Positions 28,525 through 34,846 of a stretch of DNA of 64,000 nucleotides are shown here, piece after piece. Position 1 is the stretch's first letter. Every line of letters starts with the position of its first letter. Under the pieces are notes generated by a model. That model saw only the letters and a list, made by a program, of their open reading frames with translations. It did not search any database and was not told where the DNA came from. The DNA comes from a virus (Duplodnaviria; Heunggongvirae; Uroviricota; Caudoviricetes): the IMG/VR virus record IMGVR_UViG_2645727901_000008. One strand, 5' to 3'. A program made the translations under genes and the position numbers.

Positions 28525-29148
28525 ATGAAGGATGGTGTAGTGAAGTTAAGGGTTTTAGGGGCCGCGCTCGCGGCTATGTTGGGATGCGTATCTGCTAATA
28601 CTGCCAATGCAACTGCGTTACCTGCACAATTCAGGGCAGGGCAGCAGGTTATGAATAATGCTGGTGGGGATCATTCACAAGCGGCCATTATGGACTTTTG
28701 CAAGAGGGAGGGCATTCCATTACGGCCTGTTGGAACTCAGTTTATTGGTAAAACTGACTTTTGCGTTTTTGCATATACAGCATATCTGACGGACAAAGCT
28801 ATAACAAAAACAGGTTATTCAACCAAAGATACTCTTTCCAGATTAAGTCAGGGATGGCAGCAATTCGAAGTGTATCGCCAGCAAGGATTAGGTGAGTTAT
28901 TGCAACCACTTTTTATGCTTGCGTTGGTGCCCGAGGGGCAGCAATTTTTGGTTAAAAAGGGAATGCTTCGCCAAAGTGATATTGCCGGGTTCGATAGCAT
29001 GATGGCTTATGAGCGCAAACTAACCGAGCAGCGAAATAAAAAACCATCTGCTTCATGTGTGCAAAGTAAAACAGCAGAATACAGTGCAGTAGCCGGGCCT
29101 TTAGCCAAACAAATGGCAGAGCAATGGTGTAAAAAATACGGGCAATAA
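28525..29148 (+). CDS. Secreted protein with cleavable signal peptide
   Basis: N-terminal signal peptide ending ANA. Confidence 0.5.
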   Translation: MKDGVVKLRVLGAALAAMLGCVSANTANATALPAQFRAGQQVMNNAGGDHSQAAIMDFCKREGIPLRPVGTQFIGKTDFCVFAYTAYLTDKAITKTGYSTKDTLSRLSQGWQQFEVYRQQGLGELLQPLFMLALVPEGQQFLVKKGMLRQSDIAGFDSMMAYERKLTEQRNKKPSASCVQSKTAEYSAVAGPLAKQMAEQWCKKYGQ

Positions 29149-29168
29149 GTTACGCAGCGGAGGCAGAA

Positions 29169-29561
29169 TTGAAAAGATTGACTATTGCTTTACTGGCGTC
29201 TTTCCCTTTGATCGCGAGCGCCGGAAATTTACAAGTTAAGTGCGGTCGGTTTGATATAAAAATCTATCCAGATGCCATATTTCTGAATGGGAATAAGGTT
29301 GATAACGTACACCGAAAAACTAAATCTGACGTAATGAGCTATGTGTTCCAGGAGTATGCGGAGATGGGGGGAACTTACACGCTGTACTCGCTGGATGTTC
29401 CTTCTCGCGGTGATATGACATTATCCCATCAATGGCAGAACGCCGATGGCGAAGCTCTGCGCGAAGTTAAAACAGAAAAATGCGGCACTTTCCATTCTTT
29501 TAAAGGGAAAGTGCCAAATGTTAAATCTGTGCTTGAAAAACAGCGCGCAGGTGATTTTTAA
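29169..29561 (+). CDS. Small secreted protein
   Basis: Signal peptide MKRLTIALLASFPLIASAG. Confidence 0.5.
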   Translation: MKRLTIALLASFPLIASAGNLQVKCGRFDIKIYPDAIFLNGNKVDNVHRKTKSDVMSYVFQEYAEMGGTYTLYSLDVPSRGDMTLSHQWQNADGEALREVKTEKCGTFHSFKGKVPNVKSVLEKQRAGDF

Positions 29562-29584
29562 ACTGCGTTAGCACTTTGAACATG

Positions 29585-29627
29585 GCGACAACACATCTTG
29601 GTGGCTGCGTTGTCGCTGTATGTTTTT
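29585..29627 (+). terminator. Rho-independent terminator after the secreted-protein genes
   Basis: GCGACAAC / GTTGTCGC stem then T-run. Confidence 0.5.
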
Positions 29628-29649
29628 ATAATATAAAGCATTAAAGTTT

Positions 29650-30267
29650 TCATTTTTGTCGGATCTTTTCCAGCATATTTAATTCATTATCACTTTCTGC
29701 TGCTGAGACGGTTGGCCTCACATTTCCGAAATATTTCCTGTGAGACTCATGACTTATGTATTCACCGACAGTTTCATTCTTGAATATACGAATTTGACAT
29801 ATGCGAGATCCAACAATAAGTTCTACAGGGCTATTCCCATGATTAAATAACTCTAAAGATATACAGCCTCTGTACCCTGGTTGTATCATGGTATTTAATG
29901 AAAGACCAAGCCTTGTATAGCTGCTTCTGGACAATACATCAGCGTAGCAATCTGGTGGCAAACAAACATATTCTAATGTTGTTGCCAGTACCACTTGATT
30001 CGGGTAAACAATGAATCTATCCCCAAGATCTCTCCTTGTTTCCTGGAAAAATGTTCTGATTGGTTGATGAGTATCATTGTTTTTTGATGGAATTAACTCT
30101 ATTGACGGCTTCCTTGTCATAATAGACACTAAAAAATCGTAACCAAGTCTAAGGTCTATGGTGAAGTTCCCAATTTGGTTTTTATTTAGAAGAGGTTCAA
30201 TGAACAACGACTCAGGTTCTTCTGATTCATAATATTGCAGCAATTCAGCTTTGCTTAGGAGATTCAT
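29650..30267 (-). CDS. Standalone dCTP deaminase-like enzyme (dUTPase fold)
   Basis: VLATTLEYVCLP, RSSYTRLGL and IQPGYRGCISLELFN align with E. coli Dcd motifs as recalled; ATG 30267 overlaps the upstream stop (ATGA), GGAG RBS. Confidence 0.7.
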   Translation of the reverse strand: MNLLSKAELLQYYESEEPESLFIEPLLNKNQIGNFTIDLRLGYDFLVSIMTRKPSIELIPSKNNDTHQPIRTFFQETRRDLGDRFIVYPNQVVLATTLEYVCLPPDCYADVLSRSSYTRLGLSLNTMIQPGYRGCISLELFNHGNSPVELIVGSRICQIRIFKNETVGEYISHESHRKYFGNVRPTVSAAESDNELNMLEKIRQK

Positions 30268-31337
30268 TGTGCACTCCATTTTTCAAGAATCATTACGTTT
30301 CGAATCGATTTTTCAACCAAATCATTTATAGTTTTTTCTATGGCTTCTTGTGACAACCCAGACCATATACCCGTAGGTTTTTCCCATTCAGAGCATAAGT
30401 ACTGCCAGCTGCTGTTAATAAAAGCATGCATTTCATTGTGGTCGCGAATAACAAAAGGACGCACATTATCAAAAGCTGATTTCACATCAAGCAAAGGTGT
30501 CGGCAATGTCAAACAAGGAGAAATAATCTGCCCACCATTATGTAAGGCTGATATCACAGCATTGAACATGCCAACAACTGGATTTTCCACTTTGTTCAAA
30601 AAGTCGCTTACAATTTTAACTCTATCTTCTGTGGATGGGTGAGTATAGCTTGCAGGATGAGAGCCAGCTAATTTGTATAAGAAATCTACCCCACTTTTTC
30701 CAATAAATTGGGCACTAAATAGATCTGCAAAATATTCTCTGCAATGATTTATCCAAATAACATCAGGTAGATTACTCCATTCTGGTCCAGGAAGTGTGCC
30801 TTTGTCCTTGGAACGATAGTTAAGACAGGCAAGCTCAGAAATACCTTTGCTAATATCAACGAAATGTCCCAATTCGTGATATAAAGGTATAGAGCATAAT
30901 GGTCGTCTTCTGTACATTTCAGGTAATGAAATCTGAATTAATTCGACATCGAATTTGACATTTAAAACTTCGTCAAATAAAGAATACAAATTCTTGTTTA
31001 CAGACTTAAAATAAAACCCATGCATATCTGGAGATAGGGCTGTGGTTATAAGTGTTTTTTCACTTATCCATTTTTTACAGGCATCATTTAAGCAATAGAC
31101 AATCTCGTAGGGAATTTTCTTTGTAGTACTGCCAGTGAAAAAATTAACTGCATCGGTGATAAAAAAAGTACAATCCGCAATTATTTTATCAGCAACATTC
31201 ACATGGTTTTCATAGAGCTTATCCACCGCTTCTTGTAGAACAGCAAGATATTCATGCATGTCTTTAGAAAAATAGGGAGATTCTGATATCTCCCTTAGCT
31301 TATTTCGAACTAATGTAAGTTGTGTAAATGCAAGCAT
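30264..31337 (-). CDS. HExxH metallopeptidase-like protein (ImmA/IrrE-like HELGH motif)
   Basis: PLYHELGHFVD motif in a 357-aa protein; start overlaps the upstream stop (TAATG). Confidence 0.55.
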   Translation of the reverse strand: MLAFTQLTLVRNKLREISESPYFSKDMHEYLAVLQEAVDKLYENHVNVADKIIADCTFFITDAVNFFTGSTTKKIPYEIVYCLNDACKKWISEKTLITTALSPDMHGFYFKSVNKNLYSLFDEVLNVKFDVELIQISLPEMYRRRPLCSIPLYHELGHFVDISKGISELACLNYRSKDKGTLPGPEWSNLPDVIWINHCREYFADLFSAQFIGKSGVDFLYKLAGSHPASYTHPSTEDRVKIVSDFLNKVENPVVGMFNAVISALHNGGQIISPCLTLPTPLLDVKSAFDNVRPFVIRDHNEMHAFINSSWQYLCSEWEKPTGIWSGLSQEAIEKTINDLVEKSIRNVMILEKWSAQ

Positions 31338-31642
31338 TAAATGTACTCTAATACATTCCGGGCCATTACGGGTTCTAACATATCTTCGCTAGTTACTTTG
31401 GTTAGCACCTGGGCGAGCGCCTTAGTGTGGCGTATCTCTACCGCGAGCGAGATGGACTCTCTGTGAGAAGGAATCTGTAATTGATCACCTTTATCTACAC
31501 TTAAGTTTGAGGCTTCTCTGATCACCTCATAAACCCGTAACTTTAACTGCTGTGACACTTCTTGTTGAGATGCTATAAGCTGAAGTACAGTCTTGATCAA
31601 CTTCAAAGAATCAGAAGCTTGCTGAGGAACCGCATAGAGCAT
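31337..31642 (-). CDS. Small protein, first gene of the three-gene cassette
   Basis: 101-aa ORF translationally coupled to the HExxH gene. Confidence 0.45.
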   Translation of the reverse strand: MLYAVPQQASDSLKLIKTVLQLIASQQEVSQQLKLRVYEVIREASNLSVDKGDQLQIPSHRESISLAVEIRHTKALAQVLTKVTSEDMLEPVMARNVLEYI

Positions 31643-31779
31643 AACCCCTCCTTTCCCTTATCTATAACCGCTTTCTTTTTTCTGTGTATGTTAAAAGTAG
31701 AAGCGGTTTTTACCTTTTGTAATATATATAGTGTCTAAAACTAACTTTGGCACTATATATGGCATGATATCTATGTTTT

Positions 31780-31821
31780 AAAGACACAAAAGCTCTGTTA
31801 AAACAGAGCTTTTGTGTCTTT
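31780..31821. repeat. Perfect 20-bp inverted repeat with 2-nt spacer
   Basis: AAAGACACAAAAGCTCTGTT-AA-AACAGAGCTTTTGTGTCTTT. Confidence 0.8.
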
Positions 31822-31967
31822 AACTTGATCATTTTCTCGCTGAAGTGTATGTCAGGCTTAGCTCATAATCAAGTTGCTTCCAAGCTAAAAATGAGCTAGC
31901 TCCCTGAAACACTAAGAGCGGGGTGTTTCATTTATTAGCGTTGGGCCTGACGGTGTGTAGGTGAATT

Positions 31968-32255
31968 TTAGCTCATTACTCGATAACGACGGGGAATGGA
32001 ATTCTCCATCAGGCCACGAATTACTCCCGCCTCACGTAGTTCCTCTGTCTCCCAGTATCTGTTTGTCACCAGATCGAGGCTGGCTATGACCTTGTGCCGG
32101 TCATTCGGCATAGCTAATTTTTCTGCTATAACCATCAGTGAAAACTCTTCATCCAGTAGAATTTGATAGCAGTTTTTTGATAGTTCCACTTCCCTTATGA
32201 GACTGAAACGTCGCTGGATTGTGGCAGTAGAGTAAGTGAAATCTATTTTCTTCAT
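31968..32255 (-). CDS. Hypothetical small protein downstream of ant
   Basis: 95-aa ORF. Confidence 0.4.
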   Translation of the reverse strand: MKKIDFTYSTATIQRRFSLIREVELSKNCYQILLDEEFSLMVIAEKLAMPNDRHKVIASLDLVTNRYWETEELREAGVIRGLMENSIPRRYRVMS

Positions 32256-32314
32256 CGTGCGGAGAATCCGATTATTTAGCAGTTAAAGCCCCGGACAGGC
32301 CGGGGCAACAGTAA

Positions 32315-33241
32315 TTAACTAACAATCCAGTCCATAGCAACCATATCCTCTGGCGCTAAATCAATAGCATGGATTTTCCCATCCCGGATAGTGCGCCAGT
32401 GCTTCCTTGATCCGCCTTCGGGCCATACCCATACACCTTCAGACCATGAGGCGCGACGGCATACCGTTGCATATCCACTTCTGATCTTCTCTCTGGCGGT
32501 ATGCAGTGACAGATTATCTTTTGGGATTTCCGGTAAAGGATGATGGATTGCCTGAAACAGCCCCATCTTGGGATGATACCAGCGTTTGTTGCGTGGTTCT
32601 GCCTCCGACATAACCTGCTTGAAGGCTTTCTGGAAGGGGGCCAGGGCCACAATGGAGCGTCGCGCAAGCAAACCATCTGGAGTTAAAAACTCATGCGTAT
32701 CGGTGGGAATCCGGAAAGCGTTAACCAGGTTGCGACATTTGGCTTCGGTCAGGCCACATTTCGCCGCCAGCTGGCGGTAGCCAATGTAGCCTTCCGGAAT
32801 ATTGCCTTTCTTTATTTGCTCGAGTGTTTCAGCGACCATCGATACTTGTGCTGATACCTCGGCTACCTGGGCATTTACGGCGTTGATCCGGCGTTCATGC
32901 TCAAGATGCATTTGCGCCATTTCAGCCAGGATTTCGGCTTTTGATTTTAACTGTACCCGGGCATTCTCCAGTTCGCGCCAGCGGTCCACCAGCCGGGCGG
33001 TGAATTCGGGAGAGAGCTGCGCGACGACGACAATACTATCGCGCTTGCCTTGCTCGCCTTCGAAGACGTAATAGCTCGCCGGGCGGCCTGCGGTGGGCTT
33101 TTCCTCAATTTGAGGAAAAGATATTACGCCCCGTTCCGCCAGGTGTTCAATGGTGCGTTTAACGTTATCAGGGCGCTTACCTACCAGTTCCGCGATCTCA
33201 ATGCTGGTCATTGTCGCTTTTTGAGAGATGGACAGATTCAT
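32315..33241 (-). CDS. ant: Antirepressor-like protein (Rha-like N-terminal region)
   Basis: N-terminal TSIEIAELVGKRPDNVKRTIEHL; start overlaps the upstream small ORF stop (ATGA); GGAGG RBS. Confidence 0.55.
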   Translation of the reverse strand: MNLSISQKATMTSIEIAELVGKRPDNVKRTIEHLAERGVISFPQIEEKPTAGRPASYYVFEGEQGKRDSIVVVAQLSPEFTARLVDRWRELENARVQLKSKAEILAEMAQMHLEHERRINAVNAQVAEVSAQVSMVAETLEQIKKGNIPEGYIGYRQLAAKCGLTEAKCRNLVNAFRIPTDTHEFLTPDGLLARRSIVALAPFQKAFKQVMSEAEPRNKRWYHPKMGLFQAIHHPLPEIPKDNLSLHTAREKIRSGYATVCRRASWSEGVWVWPEGGSRKHWRTIRDGKIHAIDLAPEDMVAMDWIVS

Positions 33242-33456
33242 CAGTGCGCCTCCACGCAGTTCATCGGCAGATTCCAGTAATTGAGGATCTCCATCGCATC
33301 AAGAGTGAAGCGAGCAGCAAAAATGCAGGGTTCTTCGGGAAGGTATGAGCGCGCCTCTGCTTCGGTAGCAGCCATGACGCAGATATACAGGTGTTTTTGG
33401 CAGGAATAGAAACGCCAGATAAATTCAGAATGAGTTGGGGTAGGGATAGTAGCCAT
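33241..33456 (-). CDS. icd: Icd-like small protein upstream of ant
   Basis: 71-aa ORF with AGGAGG RBS, positioned like P1 icd. Confidence 0.4.
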   Translation of the reverse strand: MATIPTPTHSEFIWRFYSCQKHLYICVMAATEAEARSYLPEEPCIFAARFTLDAMEILNYWNLPMNCVEAH

Positions 33457-33631
33457 ATTGGCAGCCTCCTTTGACTAAGTTAAGGAGCTACCGCGTGAGG
33501 TTCCAATCTCAATGGCGGTAGCACTGACTGGGTTGGAACTACCGGCGTCAAAGGGAACCGGCCTGCCTTTCGGCAGCCCAGCCAGCACTACCATTGATCT
33601 CTGAGCTAAACGCTACGTATGGCTGTGCGAT

Positions 33632-33720
33632 GGCATGACACAAAAAAAGACGCTTTCGGCGTCTGTGTCGCCTTTGACATTATCCGGGGTTCCAATCCCG
33701 GCACCCGTTTTTCTAAGGTG
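33632..33720 (-). ncRNA. Candidate c4-like antisense RNA
   Basis: Promoter-like region with operator-like GTAGAAATATA, then on the minus strand a hairpin (AGACGC-CGAAA-GCGTCT) plus U-run about 80 nt downstream; GGTTCCAATC-type elements recur in the icd leader. Confidence 0.35.
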
Positions 33721-33772
33721 CCGTAGAAATATACCCCACGATAATGCCAGGGCGCAACAGTCAGTATTTTAT

Positions 33773-33937
33773 GCTTTGGCGGATTTCTTCCGGGCTTGCT
33801 TGCAGGCGTAGGCCATTGCTTTAGCTTTCACTTCATCCAGCTTCCCGGTGATCGCTTCTTTTCCGAGAGTGACAAACCAGTCATAGCAACCGCCAGTGAT
33901 GTTCTGGATTTGAAAGTTGAGGTAGCGAACGGTCATT
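33773..33937 (-). CDS. Small hypothetical protein (54 aa), not in the ORF track
   Basis: ATG with GGGGGTG RBS-like upstream. Confidence 0.3.
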
Positions 33938-34256
33938 TTGACACCCCCAGCGCGAGTAAAGAATGCAGATTATCGCGTGAGTGGCGGACAACGAGTGATG
34001 GGAAAAGACAGTAGCTGTTCATAGTGTAGTGACTCCTTGCTTTCGGAGCCGCCATCGACTGTTCCACGGTCTGGTGGCGGCGCAATAAAGGCTGGAACAC
34101 CGTGAGTCAACGGGGGCTTTTCAGCCACCTATATTGCACCGCCATAGGTATAGCGGCGGCAATAATACGAAAAACTAAACAGTTTGTCTCAAAAAGTTGA
34201 CCGGTGTGCCAATCGGTAGTGAATGTACATCGGAGAAATTTACAATTCAACTTAAA

Positions 34257-34271
34257 ATGTTAGAAAACTAA
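34257..34271. promoter_or_regulatory. C1-type operator-like site ATGTTAGAAAACTAA
   Basis: Nearly identical to the site upstream of the c1-like gene; faces the sim-like/c4/icd/ant region. Confidence 0.45.
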
Positions 34272-34846
34272 TTTATCAATTCAATCGCCATCTGATACAA
34301 CGTCATTTCATCGGCATTGTGCCGCATGAAATCTGCTTTTCCGCCTATTTTTCCGTCAGCATGAACAGGGACCAGCCAGGGATATTGTTCTCGGACCTCG
34401 GCTGGCGCTGCGTACTGGTGGTGCCATTTACACAAAGGGAGGACATATTTATGCGCGTTCTCTGCCGTTCTCCCGAAGATATGGTGCAGGGATACTACTG
34501 GGCTATGTTGTCCGTGAATATGGCAGGCAATGCAGGGGAGAGTACCGATAGCGGTCTGTATCCGGCGTTCATCAGCTGTGAGTGATCTGCCCTTCAGGCC
34601 GCGTGACGTGCGTGTTTTTTTGGGCGGAGCGGATACAGCTTTATCTTTTCTCCGCTGTTCATATTGCTTTGCTTTTTCAATTTTCTTTTGCCGATATTCA
34701 GGCGATGCGGCTTTTTCTCTCGCTCGCTGCTGCTGGCGTTGAGCTTGTTGAAGGCGCTTTGCCCTTTGTTCCTCTCGCCAGGCCGGGTCAGCCAATTTTT
34801 GCATGGCTTTTTGTCTCTGTTTCTCCCAATAGCTCTGTTTCTGCAT
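34268..34846 (-). CDS. ref: Ref-like HNH endonuclease
   Basis: Lys/Arg/Gln-rich N-terminus then HNH-like core CIACHIHG...HHIFGR...CKWHH. Confidence 0.7.
   Translation of the reverse strand: MQKQSYWEKQRQKAMQKLADPAWREEQRAKRLQQAQRQQQRAREKAASPEYRQKKIEKAKQYEQRRKDKAVSAPPKKTRTSRGLKGRSLTADERRIQTAIGTLPCIACHIHGQHSPVVSLHHIFGRTAENAHKYVLPLCKWHHQYAAPAEVREQYPWLVPVHADGKIGGKADFMRHNADEMTLYQMAIELIN

What the first reader, a model, noticed from the sequence alone, without database searches (positions are those of the whole stretch)
31780..31821. Perfect 20-bp inverted repeat at the boundary of the AT-rich cassette
A 42-nt element (20-bp arms, 2-nt spacer) is far beyond chance and lacks a flanking U-run in either orientation, so it is not a simple intrinsic terminator. 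It sits about 140 bp upstream of the cassette start, where a dimeric regulator site, an RNA processing hairpin or a recombination boundary would be expected.
Basis: seen in the sequence. Interest (0 to 1): 0.5.

Follow-up and report, generated by a model that had tools for sequence, protein, structure and literature searches.

The report
Conserved leader palindrome of Dcd cassette
The palindrome is real (22-bp arms). It is a hairpin element that travels with a three-gene dCTP-deaminase cassette, between the cassette's own promoter and first gene, and most likely damps transcription into it rather than marking an insertion boundary.

Summary
The element is a perfect 22+2+22 palindrome at 31778-31823, by far the longest in the window.

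The window is a D6-like P1-family phage-plasmid. An empty-site relative shows a 2.4-kb insert at 29564-31980. It carries three minus-strand genes: A (101 aa), B (357 aa, HExxH, weakly M48-like) and C (Dcd-type dCTP deaminase). The palindrome lies about 157 bp inside that insert, so it is not the boundary.

The same cassette occurs in unrelated contexts in Dickeya, Proteus, Pantoea, Shewanella and metagenomes. Nine of the eleven lineages examined whose B protein is at least 56% identical carry a perfect 21-28-bp-arm palindrome at the same spot. One has lost it and one contig is cut. Arm sequences differ, and one is unrelated, yet all are 100% complementary. The central loop is flipped between close relatives.

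A conserved promoter (TTGATT-17-TACACT) ends 5-21 nt upstream, and a second covarying hairpin follows. In most variants the inner core (GCTCTG...CAGAGC) is followed by UUUUGUGU.

Best reading, at moderate confidence: a transcribed 5'-leader hairpin acting as an attenuator. Template switching probably keeps the arms perfect. RNase III processing, a DNA-level site and a small hairpin RNA remain open.

The parts
31778..31823 (.). HP1: perfect palindrome, 22-nt arms and 2-nt centre. On the sense (minus) strand: TTAAAGACACAAAAGCTCTGTT-TT-AACAGAGCTTTTGTGTCTTTAA.
   Evidence: Identical in the six well-assembled related plasmids aligned. Perfect counterparts lie at the same position upstream of gene A in other genera.
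31792..31809 (-). G+C core of HP1 (GCTCTGTT-TT-AACAGAGC). This is the only part also kept in Aeromonas.
   Evidence: GCTCT and AGAGC are invariant columns in the six-genus alignment. The core alone folds at -8.9 kcal/mol.
31778..31791 (-). U-rich tract on the sense strand (UUUUGUGUCUUUAA), directly 3' of the core. It doubles as the outer 3' arm of HP1.
   Evidence: 6 U in the first 8 nt in E. coli, gut metagenome, Dickeya, Pantoea, Shewanella and Aeromonas.
31844..31872 (-). Candidate promoter P1 of the cassette: -35 TTGATT (31872-31867), 17-nt spacer, -10 TACACT (31849-31844). Predicted start near 31837.
   Evidence: TTGNNN-17-TANNNT occurs exactly once in each of 8 variants, 5-21 nt before the hairpin. 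Shuffles give a mean of 0.24 of 8, and 0 of 2000 reach 7. It is inferred from conservation and has not been mapped.
31724..31760 (-). IR-2 / HP2: second inverted repeat (ATATATAGTG - 17 nt - CACTATATAT on the sense strand), 17 nt downstream of HP1.
   Evidence: (I5). One pair shows AU:4 / GC:4 and another GC:3 / GU:3.
31643..31837 (-). Predicted 5' leader (about 195 nt) holding HP1, HP2 and a strong ribosome-binding site (GGAGG) before the ATG.
   Evidence: inferred from P1.
31337..31642 (-). Gene A, 101 aa, all-helical, no recognised domain.
30264..31337 (-). Gene B, 357 aa, invariant HELGH motif, weakly M48-peptidase-like fold.
29650..30279 (-). Gene C, 209 aa, Dcd-type (dUTPase-fold) dCTP deaminase.
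   Evidence: PF22769, 1.3e-30; TIGR02274, 113 bits against a cut-off of 92.8.
29564..31980 (.). The inserted module (cassette plus its regulatory region) relative to an empty-site D6-like plasmid. Its right end replaces the 3' end of the pmgF-like gene.

Best explanation
The palindrome (HP1) is a cis element owned by the A-B-Dcd cassette.

Proposed mechanism:
- It lies just downstream of the cassette's own sigma-70-type promoter P1, so it is transcribed as the first structure of a roughly 195-nt 5' leader.
- It folds into a long hairpin. The G+C core followed by a U-rich tract makes RNA polymerase terminate or pause there. This is an intrinsic attenuator.
- Transcription into the deaminase operon is thereby kept low. 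That applies to initiation at P1 and, in this phage-plasmid, to read-through from the ant/pmgF operon.
- Because the element is symmetric, it could equally stop antisense transcription.

The arms stay perfectly complementary probably less through base-by-base selection than through replication template switching. That process copies one arm onto the other and occasionally flips the centre.

Shown: the anatomy, co-inheritance with the cassette, compensatory change, loop flips and conservation of P1.
Inferred: that P1 fires, that HP1 is transcribed, and that it terminates.
For: 1. HP1 belongs to the cassette, not to the phage backbone.
- It lies inside the 2.4-kb insert.
- It recurs at -136 to -196 nt from the ATG of gene A in most of the other lineages found: gut-metagenome contigs, Dickeya, Pantoea, a Pantoea-like contig (L227) and Proteus. 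In Shewanella it lies closer (-104 to -157), and in contig L217 at about -126 to -183 after correcting an N-extended ORF call. In all of them it sits directly upstream of IR-2.
- The flanking genes in these loci are unrelated.

2. Pairing is what is conserved.
- All nine long variants are 100% complementary (arms 21-28 nt).
- 12 of 22 HP1 pairs show changes on both sides. Overall, 91% of cells are paired, against 82% in shuffles (0 of 500 reach it) and 25-58% when the partners are slid.

3. A promoter-like TTGNNN-17-TANNNT sits 5-21 nt upstream in all 8 variants. Its spacer sequence differs in Shewanella, L217 and Aeromonas.

4. The core has terminator anatomy.
- A 6-9-bp core (-7.5 to -10 kcal/mol) is followed by UUUUGUGU, UUUUAUGU or UUUUUGCU (6 U of 8) in 6 of 8 variants.
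- Aeromonas keeps only this core plus the U tract and has no long arms.

5. The downstream repeat HP2 carries G.U pairs in the sense orientation in 3 sequences. This fits transcription coming from upstream of it.

6. Loop flips occur between near-identical relatives: TT in the window against AA in L222, and TTTT in L227 against AAAAA in Pantoea. This is the signature of intra-palindrome template switching, which is documented in E. coli and makes imperfect repeats perfect (PMC7202029, PMC5941160).
Against: - No transcript data are available. P1, the transcription start and any termination are all inferred.
- The tool's terminator scan did not call HP1.
- The core stem is weak, with 4 G-C pairs.
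- After the full stem there is no U tract (0-3 U of 8).
- Two variants have poor U tracts after any truncation of the stem (Proteus 4 of 8, L217 4 of 8). L217's 28-bp arms have no terminator-like core at all.
- Arms of 21 bp or more in every long variant are more than a terminator needs.
- One lineage (L225/L226) has lost the hairpin while genes A, B and C are intact. The element is therefore dispensable there.
- An alternative promoter overlapping IR-2 cannot be excluded.
Confidence: 0.42

Rival explanations
1. RNA processing or stability hairpin. The transcribed HP1 is a perfect double-stranded RNA of two or more helical turns. RNase III cleaves it, or it shields the 5' end, and this sets the half-life or translation of the cassette mRNA, as in the pnp and rnc leaders or the lambda N leader (general knowledge).
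For: - Every long variant has at least 21 uninterrupted pairs (21-28), about the length RNase III needs.
- This holds even for L217 and Proteus, where the U tract is poor.
- HP1 starts at about +1 to +14 of the predicted transcript.
- Pairing, not sequence, is conserved.
Against: - Aeromonas keeps only an 8-bp hairpin with a U tract, too short for RNase III.
- The single-stranded 5' segment before HP1 varies from 0 to about 14 nt, which does not fit a strict 5'-terminal protective stem.
- No cleavage data exist.
- The complete absence of G.U pairs is not needed for RNase III substrates.
Confidence: 0.2
2. DNA-level element. HP1 is an operator or roadblock for a symmetric DNA-binding protein. 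Alternatively it is a cruciform-forming sequence whose extrusion, dependent on supercoiling, modulates the adjacent promoter.
For: - It lies between the promoter and the gene, at about +13 to +58, where roadblock operators sit.
- Complementarity is strictly Watson-Crick, and the centre is A+T-rich in seven of the nine long variants, which favours extrusion. The exceptions are Shewanella (AGTC) and L217 (TC).
- GCTCTG-N6-CAGAGC spacing is kept in 5 of 6 alignable variants.
- Distant relatives carry an Xre-type helix-turn-helix gene next to gene A.
Against: - L217 has an unrelated 58-bp palindrome at the same place, while P1, IR-2 and proteins A, B and C are conserved. That is hard to reconcile with sequence-specific binding.
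- Centre length varies from 0 to 5 nt, and Proteus has a mirrored 1-nt deletion in the arms.
- Half-site changes are mirrored rather than preserved.
- No DNA-binding domain was found in A or B. The model of A is of low confidence.
Confidence: 0.13
3. Small hairpin RNA gene. P1 plus HP1 (as its terminator) make an abundant RNA of about 55-70 nt. This RNA acts in trans on the cassette proteins, in the promoter-RNA-terminator-toxin layout of type III toxin-antitoxin systems. AvcI RNA inhibiting the AvcD deaminase is the functional analogue.
For: - A conserved promoter is followed immediately by a hairpin with a U tract.
- The effector is a dCTP deaminase, and another deaminase defence system uses an RNA antitoxin. 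Type III systems typically have a terminator between the RNA and the toxin (PMC10511110).
Against: - The RNA would have almost no conserved single-stranded or sequence-specific part.
- L217's sequence is unrelated.
- There are no tandem repeats as in ToxI.
- Dcd is a different fold from AvcD.
- L225/L226 lack the hairpin with intact genes. That would be lethal if HP1 were an essential antitoxin.
- Rfam has no match.
Confidence: 0.1
4. Ordinary bidirectional terminator of the phage-plasmid's ant/pmgF (immI) operon that merely happens to lie next to the cassette.
For: - The upstream genes icd, ant and pmgF run in the same direction and end 145 nt before HP1.
- The A-tract/U-tract symmetry is typical of bidirectional terminators.
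- In two distant relatives a classical terminator of the upstream gene precedes the cassette.
Against: - HP1 is absent from D6-like relatives that lack the cassette, which instead join the flanks directly.
- It is present with the cassette in chromosomes and transposons that have other upstream genes.
- A conserved promoter lies between the upstream gene and HP1.
Confidence: 0.05
5. Recombination site or boundary of the inserted cassette.
For: It is a palindrome near one end of an AT-rich insert.
Against: - The insert ends are at 29564 and 31980, and HP1 is 157 bp inside.
- Cassette homology across genomes extends upstream past HP1 to P1.
- There is no second copy at the other end, none elsewhere in the window, and none elsewhere in 5,426 E. 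coli genomes.
Confidence: 0.02

Closest known systems
Intrinsic (Rho-independent) terminators used as leader attenuators, including bidirectional ones with complementary A and U tracts
   Same: A G+C core hairpin is followed directly by a U-rich tract. An upstream A-rich tract is complementary to it, so the element reads the same on both strands. It lies in a 5' leader just after a promoter. The Aeromonas version is a plain 8-bp hairpin plus U tract.
   Different: Complementarity runs 21-28 bp, far beyond the core. The core is weak. Two variants lack a good U tract. No alternative antiterminator pairing is visible. Termination has not been measured.
RNase III-cleaved leader hairpins (pnp and rnc leaders, lambda N leader, lambda sib) - from general knowledge
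   Same: A long, nearly perfect double-stranded RNA stem of about two helical turns in an untranslated region that controls expression of the adjacent genes.
   Different: Those stems usually contain bulges or internal loops and have defined cleavage sites. Here there are no mismatches at all, no cleavage evidence, and one relative has only a short stem.
Type III toxin-antitoxin layout (ToxIN; AvcID deaminase system, PMC10511110)
   Same: A promoter, then a structured non-coding RNA, then usually a terminator, then the toxic enzyme. In AvcID the enzyme is also a deoxycytidine deaminase used against phage.
   Different: There are no RNA repeats and no conserved RNA sequence. The deaminase has a different fold (Dcd/dUTPase-like rather than the zinc cytidine-deaminase fold of AvcD). 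Two further proteins (A and B) are present. The hairpin is dispensable in one lineage.
Perfect inverted repeats maintained by quasipalindrome template switching (PMC7202029, PMC5941160)
   Same: The arms stay perfect while their sequence drifts. Mirrored substitutions and a mirrored 1-nt deletion occur. The central loop is inverted between near-identical relatives.
   Different: This explains how the symmetry is kept, not what the element does. The element's persistence at a fixed place in a regulatory region still implies function.
CapH/CapP-type protease-controlled defence operons (bioRxiv 10.1101/2022.04.27.489752)
   Same: A defence-island operon that includes an HExxH zinc peptidase and has repeats in its promoter/leader region.

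Membership tests
Intrinsic terminator / attenuator | Stable G+C-containing stem of about 5-14 bp with a loop of 3-8 nt | tested here: inconclusive
   The core stem is 6-9 bp with 4 G-C pairs, at -7.5 to -10 kcal/mol. The centre is 0-5 nt, so the innermost A-U pairs must open to form a loop. The consensus scan did not call it.
Intrinsic terminator / attenuator | U-rich tract directly 3' of the stem | tested here: inconclusive
   Met if the stem is taken as the core: 6 U of 8 in 6 of 8 variants. Not met in Proteus or L217 (4 of 8). Not met after the full stem (0-3 U of 8).
Intrinsic terminator / attenuator | Lies within a transcribed region, downstream of a promoter | tested here: inconclusive
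   A conserved TTGNNN-17-TANNNT lies 5-21 nt upstream in 8 of 8 variants. Sense-strand G.U pairs occur in the downstream hairpin. There is no transcript mapping.
Intrinsic terminator / attenuator | RNA 3' ends form in the U tract | not testable with these tools
   Needs Term-seq, 3' RACE or in vitro transcription.
RNase III substrate | About 20 bp or more of uninterrupted double-stranded RNA | tested here: met
   Arms are 21-28 bp and perfect in all nine long variants. This is not so in Aeromonas (8 bp).
RNase III substrate | Cleavage by RNase III | not testable with these tools
   Needs an rnc mutant comparison or an in vitro cleavage assay.
Operator of a symmetric DNA-binding regulator | Half-site sequence and spacing conserved among relatives | tested here: not met
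   L217 has an unrelated sequence. The centre is 0-5 nt. Changes are mirrored rather than preserved.
Operator of a symmetric DNA-binding regulator | A cognate DNA-binding protein encoded alongside | tested here: inconclusive
   No DNA-binding domain was found in A or B. The model of A has pLDDT 55. The 95-aa PmgF-like neighbour does not travel with the element.
Recombination site / cassette boundary | Located at the junction between inserted and backbone DNA | tested here: not met
   The junctions are at 29564 and 31980, and the palindrome is 157 bp inside.
Dispersed repeat (REP or miniature transposon-like) | Many copies per genome | tested here: not met
   There is one copy in the window. 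It is found in only 8 of 5,426 complete E. coli genomes, one locus each, always on the D6-like plasmid.
Any described RNA family (Rfam 15) | Match at or above the family's gathering score | tested here: not met
   Only chance-level hits overlap HP1 (27 and 23 bits against gathering scores of 50 and 249).
Type III toxin-antitoxin RNA | Tandem repeats or a conserved RNA sequence that binds the toxin | tested here: not met
   There are no tandem repeats. The RNA sequence is not conserved in L217. The hairpin is lost in L225/L226 with intact genes.

The most novel reading that the evidence does not exclude
P1 and HP1 form a tiny gene for a perfect double-stranded hairpin RNA. That RNA, or its processing by RNase III, is the switch of a so far undescribed three-protein dCTP-deaminase defence system. 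One version is a labile RNA that holds the system off until phage infection stops host transcription or alters RNase activity. This would be a structure-based counterpart of AvcI/AvcD.
Probability: 0.1. Interest if true: 0.75.

Novelty: new variant of a known kind. Interest (0 to 1): 0.42.

Why it matters
The palindrome turns out to be a landmark for a portable, self-contained regulatory region (promoter, long hairpin, second hairpin). This region accompanies an uncharacterised three-gene cassette of a small helical protein, an HExxH peptidase-like protein and a Dcd-type dCTP deaminase.

The cassette sits in defence-island settings: next to type I restriction genes, in a CRISPR-associated Tn7-like transposon, beside a site-specific integrase, and in a variable slot of P1-family phage-plasmids. 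The defence-system and NCBI naming libraries tried do not recognise proteins A or B.

If the cassette is an anti-phage nucleotide-depletion system, this leader is the obvious place to look for how it is kept silent and then switched on.

The element is also a clean natural example of a long palindrome that stays perfect while its sequence turns over and its centre flips. This is direct comparative evidence for template-switch homogenisation acting on a functional site.

Tried and rejected
- **Rfam, E-value mode, 29000-34500.** Nothing real on HP1. It did find the C4 and isrK-like RNAs of the immI region.
- **Protein family searches.** PADLOC found nothing for any of the seven proteins tested, cassette genes A, B and C included. 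NCBIfam and Pfam found nothing for A or B.
- **Structure of A.** pLDDT was 55, so it was not used for fold search. A profile search against PDB sequences gave nothing.
- **Metagenome scan with the promoter-box pattern TTNAGCYTGACATAMACT.** tblastn against all fetched loci numbered L092 and above found the cassette in only one, L119. The same pattern gave 4 viral contigs, none relevant.
- **P1 C1-repressor operator consensus.** No match in the window at up to 3 mismatches, so there is no sign of C1 control of the cassette.
- **TTAGCTCAT motif between pmgF and P1.** Two copies; 20 of 100 shuffles do as well, so it was dropped.
- **A 40-codon ORF across the palindrome (31710-31832, minus strand).** Its ATG is absent in the gut-metagenome variant, so it was dropped.
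- **A promoter using the perfect TTGACA box (31855-31850).** No conserved -10 follows it in the other variants. TTGATT-17-TACACT is the consistent pair.
- **A promoter inside IR-2.** Candidate -10 boxes exist, but by eye I found no conserved -35. It was kept only as a caveat.
- **Classical terminators upstream of the cassette in Hymenobacter and Janthinobacterium.** These belong to an upstream ribonucleotide reductase gene and are not homologues of HP1.
- **Literature searches.** No description of this cassette was found.

Full report
**1. The observation**

The repeat is real and slightly longer than reported. The arms are 31778-31799 and 31802-31823, 22 nt each, 100% complementary, with a 2-nt centre.

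It is the longest perfect hairpin-type repeat in the window. The next has 11-nt arms, and 30 block-shuffled windows gave at most 8-12. As RNA the region folds at -38.4 kcal/mol, z = -6.6.

It lies 136 nt before the ATG (31642) of a minus-strand gene. The surrounding 29600-32000 stretch is AT-rich, with GC 0.33-0.41 against about 0.5 in the flanks.

**2. Where it sits**

The window is a D6-like member of the P1 family of phage-plasmids.
- The 401 bp around the element match 12 non-mobilisable E. coli or Salmonella plasmids at 86-99.8% (ten of about 90-96 kb, plus two error-prone Salmonella assemblies of 98.5 and 169 kb). They match no phage record at that stringency.
- Longer queries hit phage D6 on both flanks.

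All local genes are on the minus strand:

| Element | Coordinates | Note |
|---|---|---|
| icd | upstream of ant | |
| ant | 32315-33241 | Rha-type antirepressor |
| pmgF-like gene | 31968-32255 | 95 aa |
| palindrome | 31778-31823 | |
| gene A | 31337-31642 | 101 aa |
| gene B | 30264-31337 | 357 aa |
| gene C | 29650-30279 | 209 aa |

Gene C is a Dcd-type dCTP deaminase (Pfam PF22769, 1.3e-30; TIGR02274 above its cut-off).

Gene A is all-helical and matches nothing.

**3. It is not the insertion boundary**

A Shigella D6-like plasmid lacks the cassette. Against it the window carries an insert from 29564 to 31980 that replaces 31 bp. The right junction falls in the 3' end of the pmgF-like gene and changes its last residues.

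The palindrome is therefore 157 bp inside the insert. Other D6-like plasmids, and D6 itself, carry other cargo in this slot.

**4. The element travels with the cassette**

Protein B has more than 200 homologues. The A-B-C gene order is kept in many of the 68 genome loci retrieved from Proteobacteria and Bacteroidota, wherever all three ORFs could be called.

The flanks are unrelated and often defence-island-like:
- a site-specific integrase, with QueC- and TatD-family genes nearby, in Proteus;
- AlpA and integrase-type genes in Dickeya;
- TniQ and Csy2 of a CRISPR-associated transposon in Shewanella;
- a type I restriction subunit plus an HNH protein.

I examined eleven lineages whose B protein is at least 56% identical to the window's. 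Nine carry a long, perfect palindrome directly upstream of the second repeat IR-2. It lies -136 to -196 nt from the ATG of A in the first seven lineages below, -104 to -157 in Shewanella, and about -126 to -183 in L217 after correcting an N-extended ORF call.

| Lineage | Arms + centre (nt) | Note |
|---|---|---|
| E. coli / Salmonella plasmids | 22+2 | this window |
| IMG/VR D6-like contig L222 | 22+2 | centre flipped |
| gut metagenome (L018-20, L119) | 24+2 | |
| Dickeya | 22+0 | |
| Pantoea | 21+5 | |
| L227 | 22+4 | |
| Proteus | 24+2 | about 6 substitutions and a 1-nt deletion per arm, all mirrored |
| Shewanella | 25+4 | |
| L217 | 28+2 | unrelated arm sequence |

Of the other two, one contig (L216) is cut within the element. 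One lineage (L225/L226) keeps the promoter and second repeat, but its left arm has decayed while genes A, B and C remain intact.

Aeromonas (51% identity) keeps only AGCTCTGA-TTTT-TCAGAGCT followed by TTTTTGCTCTTT. Relatives at 49% identity or less have no counterpart.

Within E. coli the element is confined to the D6-like plasmids: 8 of 5,426 complete genomes, one locus each.

**5. Pairing, not sequence, is conserved**

On an alignment of eight leaders, RNAalifold returns HP1 (22 pairs) and a second hairpin HP2 (10 pairs).

Counting on that structure:
- 91.4% of cells are paired, against 81.8% in shuffles (0 of 500 reach it) and 25-58% when partners are slid.
- 14 pairs have changes on both sides (0 of 500 shuffles reach it), 12 of them in HP1.

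All the unpaired cells, and the few G.U-type cells counted in HP1, come from L217 and Aeromonas, whose own hairpins are out of register in the alignment. Taken on its own, every long variant is 100% Watson-Crick, with no G.T pair.

Two pairs of near-identical relatives differ only by an inverted centre:
- TT in the window against AA in L222;
- TTTT in L227 against AAAAA in Pantoea.

Perfect arms, mirrored indels and flipped loops are what replication template switching at quasipalindromes produces (PMC7202029). That mechanism has been proposed to keep perfect inverted repeats conserved in Proteobacteria (PMC5941160). I therefore attribute the perfection to this mutational process. Only the persistence and position of the hairpin need selection. 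This is an inference.

**6. What surrounds it inside the module**

Homology between cassettes from different genomes begins about 45-50 bp upstream of HP1.

In all eight variants there is exactly one TTGNNN-17-TANNNT, ending 5-21 nt before the hairpin. Its spacer sequence differs in Shewanella, L217 and Aeromonas. Shuffled sequences give 0.24 of 8 on average, and none of 2,000 reaches 7.

In the window this is TTGATT (31872-31867), a 17-nt spacer, then TACACT (31849-31844). That predicts a start near 31837 and a 195-nt leader.

Seventeen nucleotides after HP1 comes IR-2/HP2 (31724-31760). It has one fully compensatory pair (AU:4, GC:4) and one pair with G.U in three sequences, in the sense orientation. 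This fits an RNA structure on a transcript that starts upstream, and so supports the idea that HP1 is itself transcribed.

**7. How it most likely works**

In 6 of 8 variants the G+C core (6-9 bp, -7.5 to -10 kcal/mol) is followed at once by UUUUGUGU, UUUUAUGU or UUUUUGCU. The 5' arm supplies the complementary A-rich tract, as in bidirectional terminators. Aeromonas retains exactly this minimal part.

The simplest reading is a promoter-proximal intrinsic attenuator. It would limit transcription into a potentially harmful deaminase operon, both from P1 and from the co-directional ant/pmgF operon of the phage-plasmid.

Weaknesses of this reading:
- The core is weak.
- The tool's terminator scan did not call it.
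- Proteus and L217 have poor U tracts.
- Arms of at least 21 bp in every long variant exceed what termination needs.
- One lineage has lost it.
- Nothing has been measured.

I put this reading at about 0.4.

**8. Rivals**

- **RNase III or stability hairpin, about 0.2.** It explains the minimum of 21 bp and the L217 and Proteus cases, but not Aeromonas.
- **DNA-level operator or cruciform, about 0.13.** It fits the strict Watson-Crick symmetry and the mostly A+T-rich centres. L217's unrelated sequence, the variable centre length and the lack of any detectable DNA-binding domain in A or B argue against sequence-specific binding.
- **Small hairpin RNA acting in trans, about 0.1.** This is the type III toxin-antitoxin layout, compare AvcI/AvcD (PMC10511110). 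It is attractive because the effector is a deaminase, but the RNA has no conserved sequence and the hairpin is dispensable in one lineage.
- **Terminator of the phage operon only, about 0.05,** and **recombination boundary, about 0.02.** Both are contradicted by the comparative data.

**9. Comparison with known systems, and novelty**

No Rfam family matches. The defence-system library does not recognise any cassette protein, and NCBI's naming library does not recognise A or B. The literature searches found no description.

The element works like a leader attenuator or bidirectional terminator, with an unusually long and always perfect stem. I rate it a new variant of a known kind, attached to an uncharacterised candidate defence cassette.

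Interest is moderate. The evolutionary behaviour is neat and the cassette deserves testing, but no long-standing question hinges on the palindrome itself.

Noticed in passing
window 29650-31642 (minus strand); loci L012-L091, L216-L230: The three-gene cassette is conserved as a unit across Proteobacteria and Bacteroidota: A (101 aa, helical), B (357 aa, HELGH, weakly M48-like) and C (Dcd-type dCTP deaminase). It often sits beside restriction, CRISPR-transposon or integrase genes. PADLOC does not recognise any of the three proteins, and NCBIfam does not recognise A or B. It is a candidate undescribed nucleotide-depletion defence system.
   Followed up: partly
window 31724-31760: A second conserved inverted repeat (ATATATAGTG - 17 nt - CACTATATAT on the sense strand) lies 17 nt downstream of the palindrome. 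It is present in all close relatives, including Aeromonas and the lineage that lost the big palindrome. One pair is fully compensatory and one has G.U pairs in three sequences. It could be an RNA hairpin or an operator.
   Followed up: partly
window 31844-31872 (minus strand): A conserved promoter-like pair, TTGATT-17-TACACT, lies upstream of the palindrome. The consensus scan missed it (8 of 12 matches). A perfect TTGACA overlaps its spacer but has no conserved -10.
   Followed up: yes
window 31968-32255 against L009 3059-3370: The insertion replaced the 3' end of the pmgF-like gene. The protein ends ...PRRYRVMS here and ...PRRYRAGNGISVVKGV in the empty-site plasmid.
   Followed up: yes
window 33511-33598, 33643-33721, 34070-34149 (minus strand): The search found a C4 antisense RNA (77 bits), an isrK-like RNA (63 bits, above its gathering score) and a second, weaker C4-like copy (40 bits, below gathering). 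All lie upstream of icd/ant and form the immI control region of a P1-type element.
   Followed up: no
L001 (pEC213_2) against the window: The leader region is 99.8% identical to the window, but protein B of that plasmid is only 91% identical. The cassette is therefore mosaic, with recombination inside it.
   Followed up: no
L086 94-1989 and L089 48-1964: In Hymenobacter and Janthinobacterium the cassette lies directly downstream of a large upstream gene, with near-identical C-terminal DNA in the two loci. In Janthinobacterium that gene is a ribonucleotide reductase large subunit (Pfam); the Hymenobacter one was not scanned. This hints at a link to nucleotide metabolism or a shared mobile block.
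   Followed up: partly
L229 324-542, L230 292-510: In relatives at 46% identity, a 72-aa Xre-type helix-turn-helix gene sits immediately upstream of gene A in the same orientation. There is no palindrome. This branch may use a dedicated protein regulator instead.
   Followed up: partly
window 31905-31930: An 8-9-bp hairpin (TGAAACAC...GTGTTTCA, 8-10-nt loop) lies between the pmgF stop and P1. It is terminator-like only on the plus strand (followed by TTTATTAG). Dickeya and Aeromonas also have a short hairpin at about -290 from gene A, probably the terminator of their upstream genes.
   Followed up: no
L003, L004 (pSa1423 plasmids): These two Salmonella plasmid records carry the region with many single-base indels and fragmented ORFs, including 1-2 gaps inside the palindrome. 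They look like error-prone assemblies and were not used as evidence of variation.
   Followed up: partly
window 31660-31705 (minus strand): There may be a third leader hairpin (AACCGCTTCT ... AGAAAGCGGTT) just before the ribosome-binding site. The gut-metagenome variant has a counterpart (CCGCC ... GGCGG). It has not been analysed.
   Followed up: no
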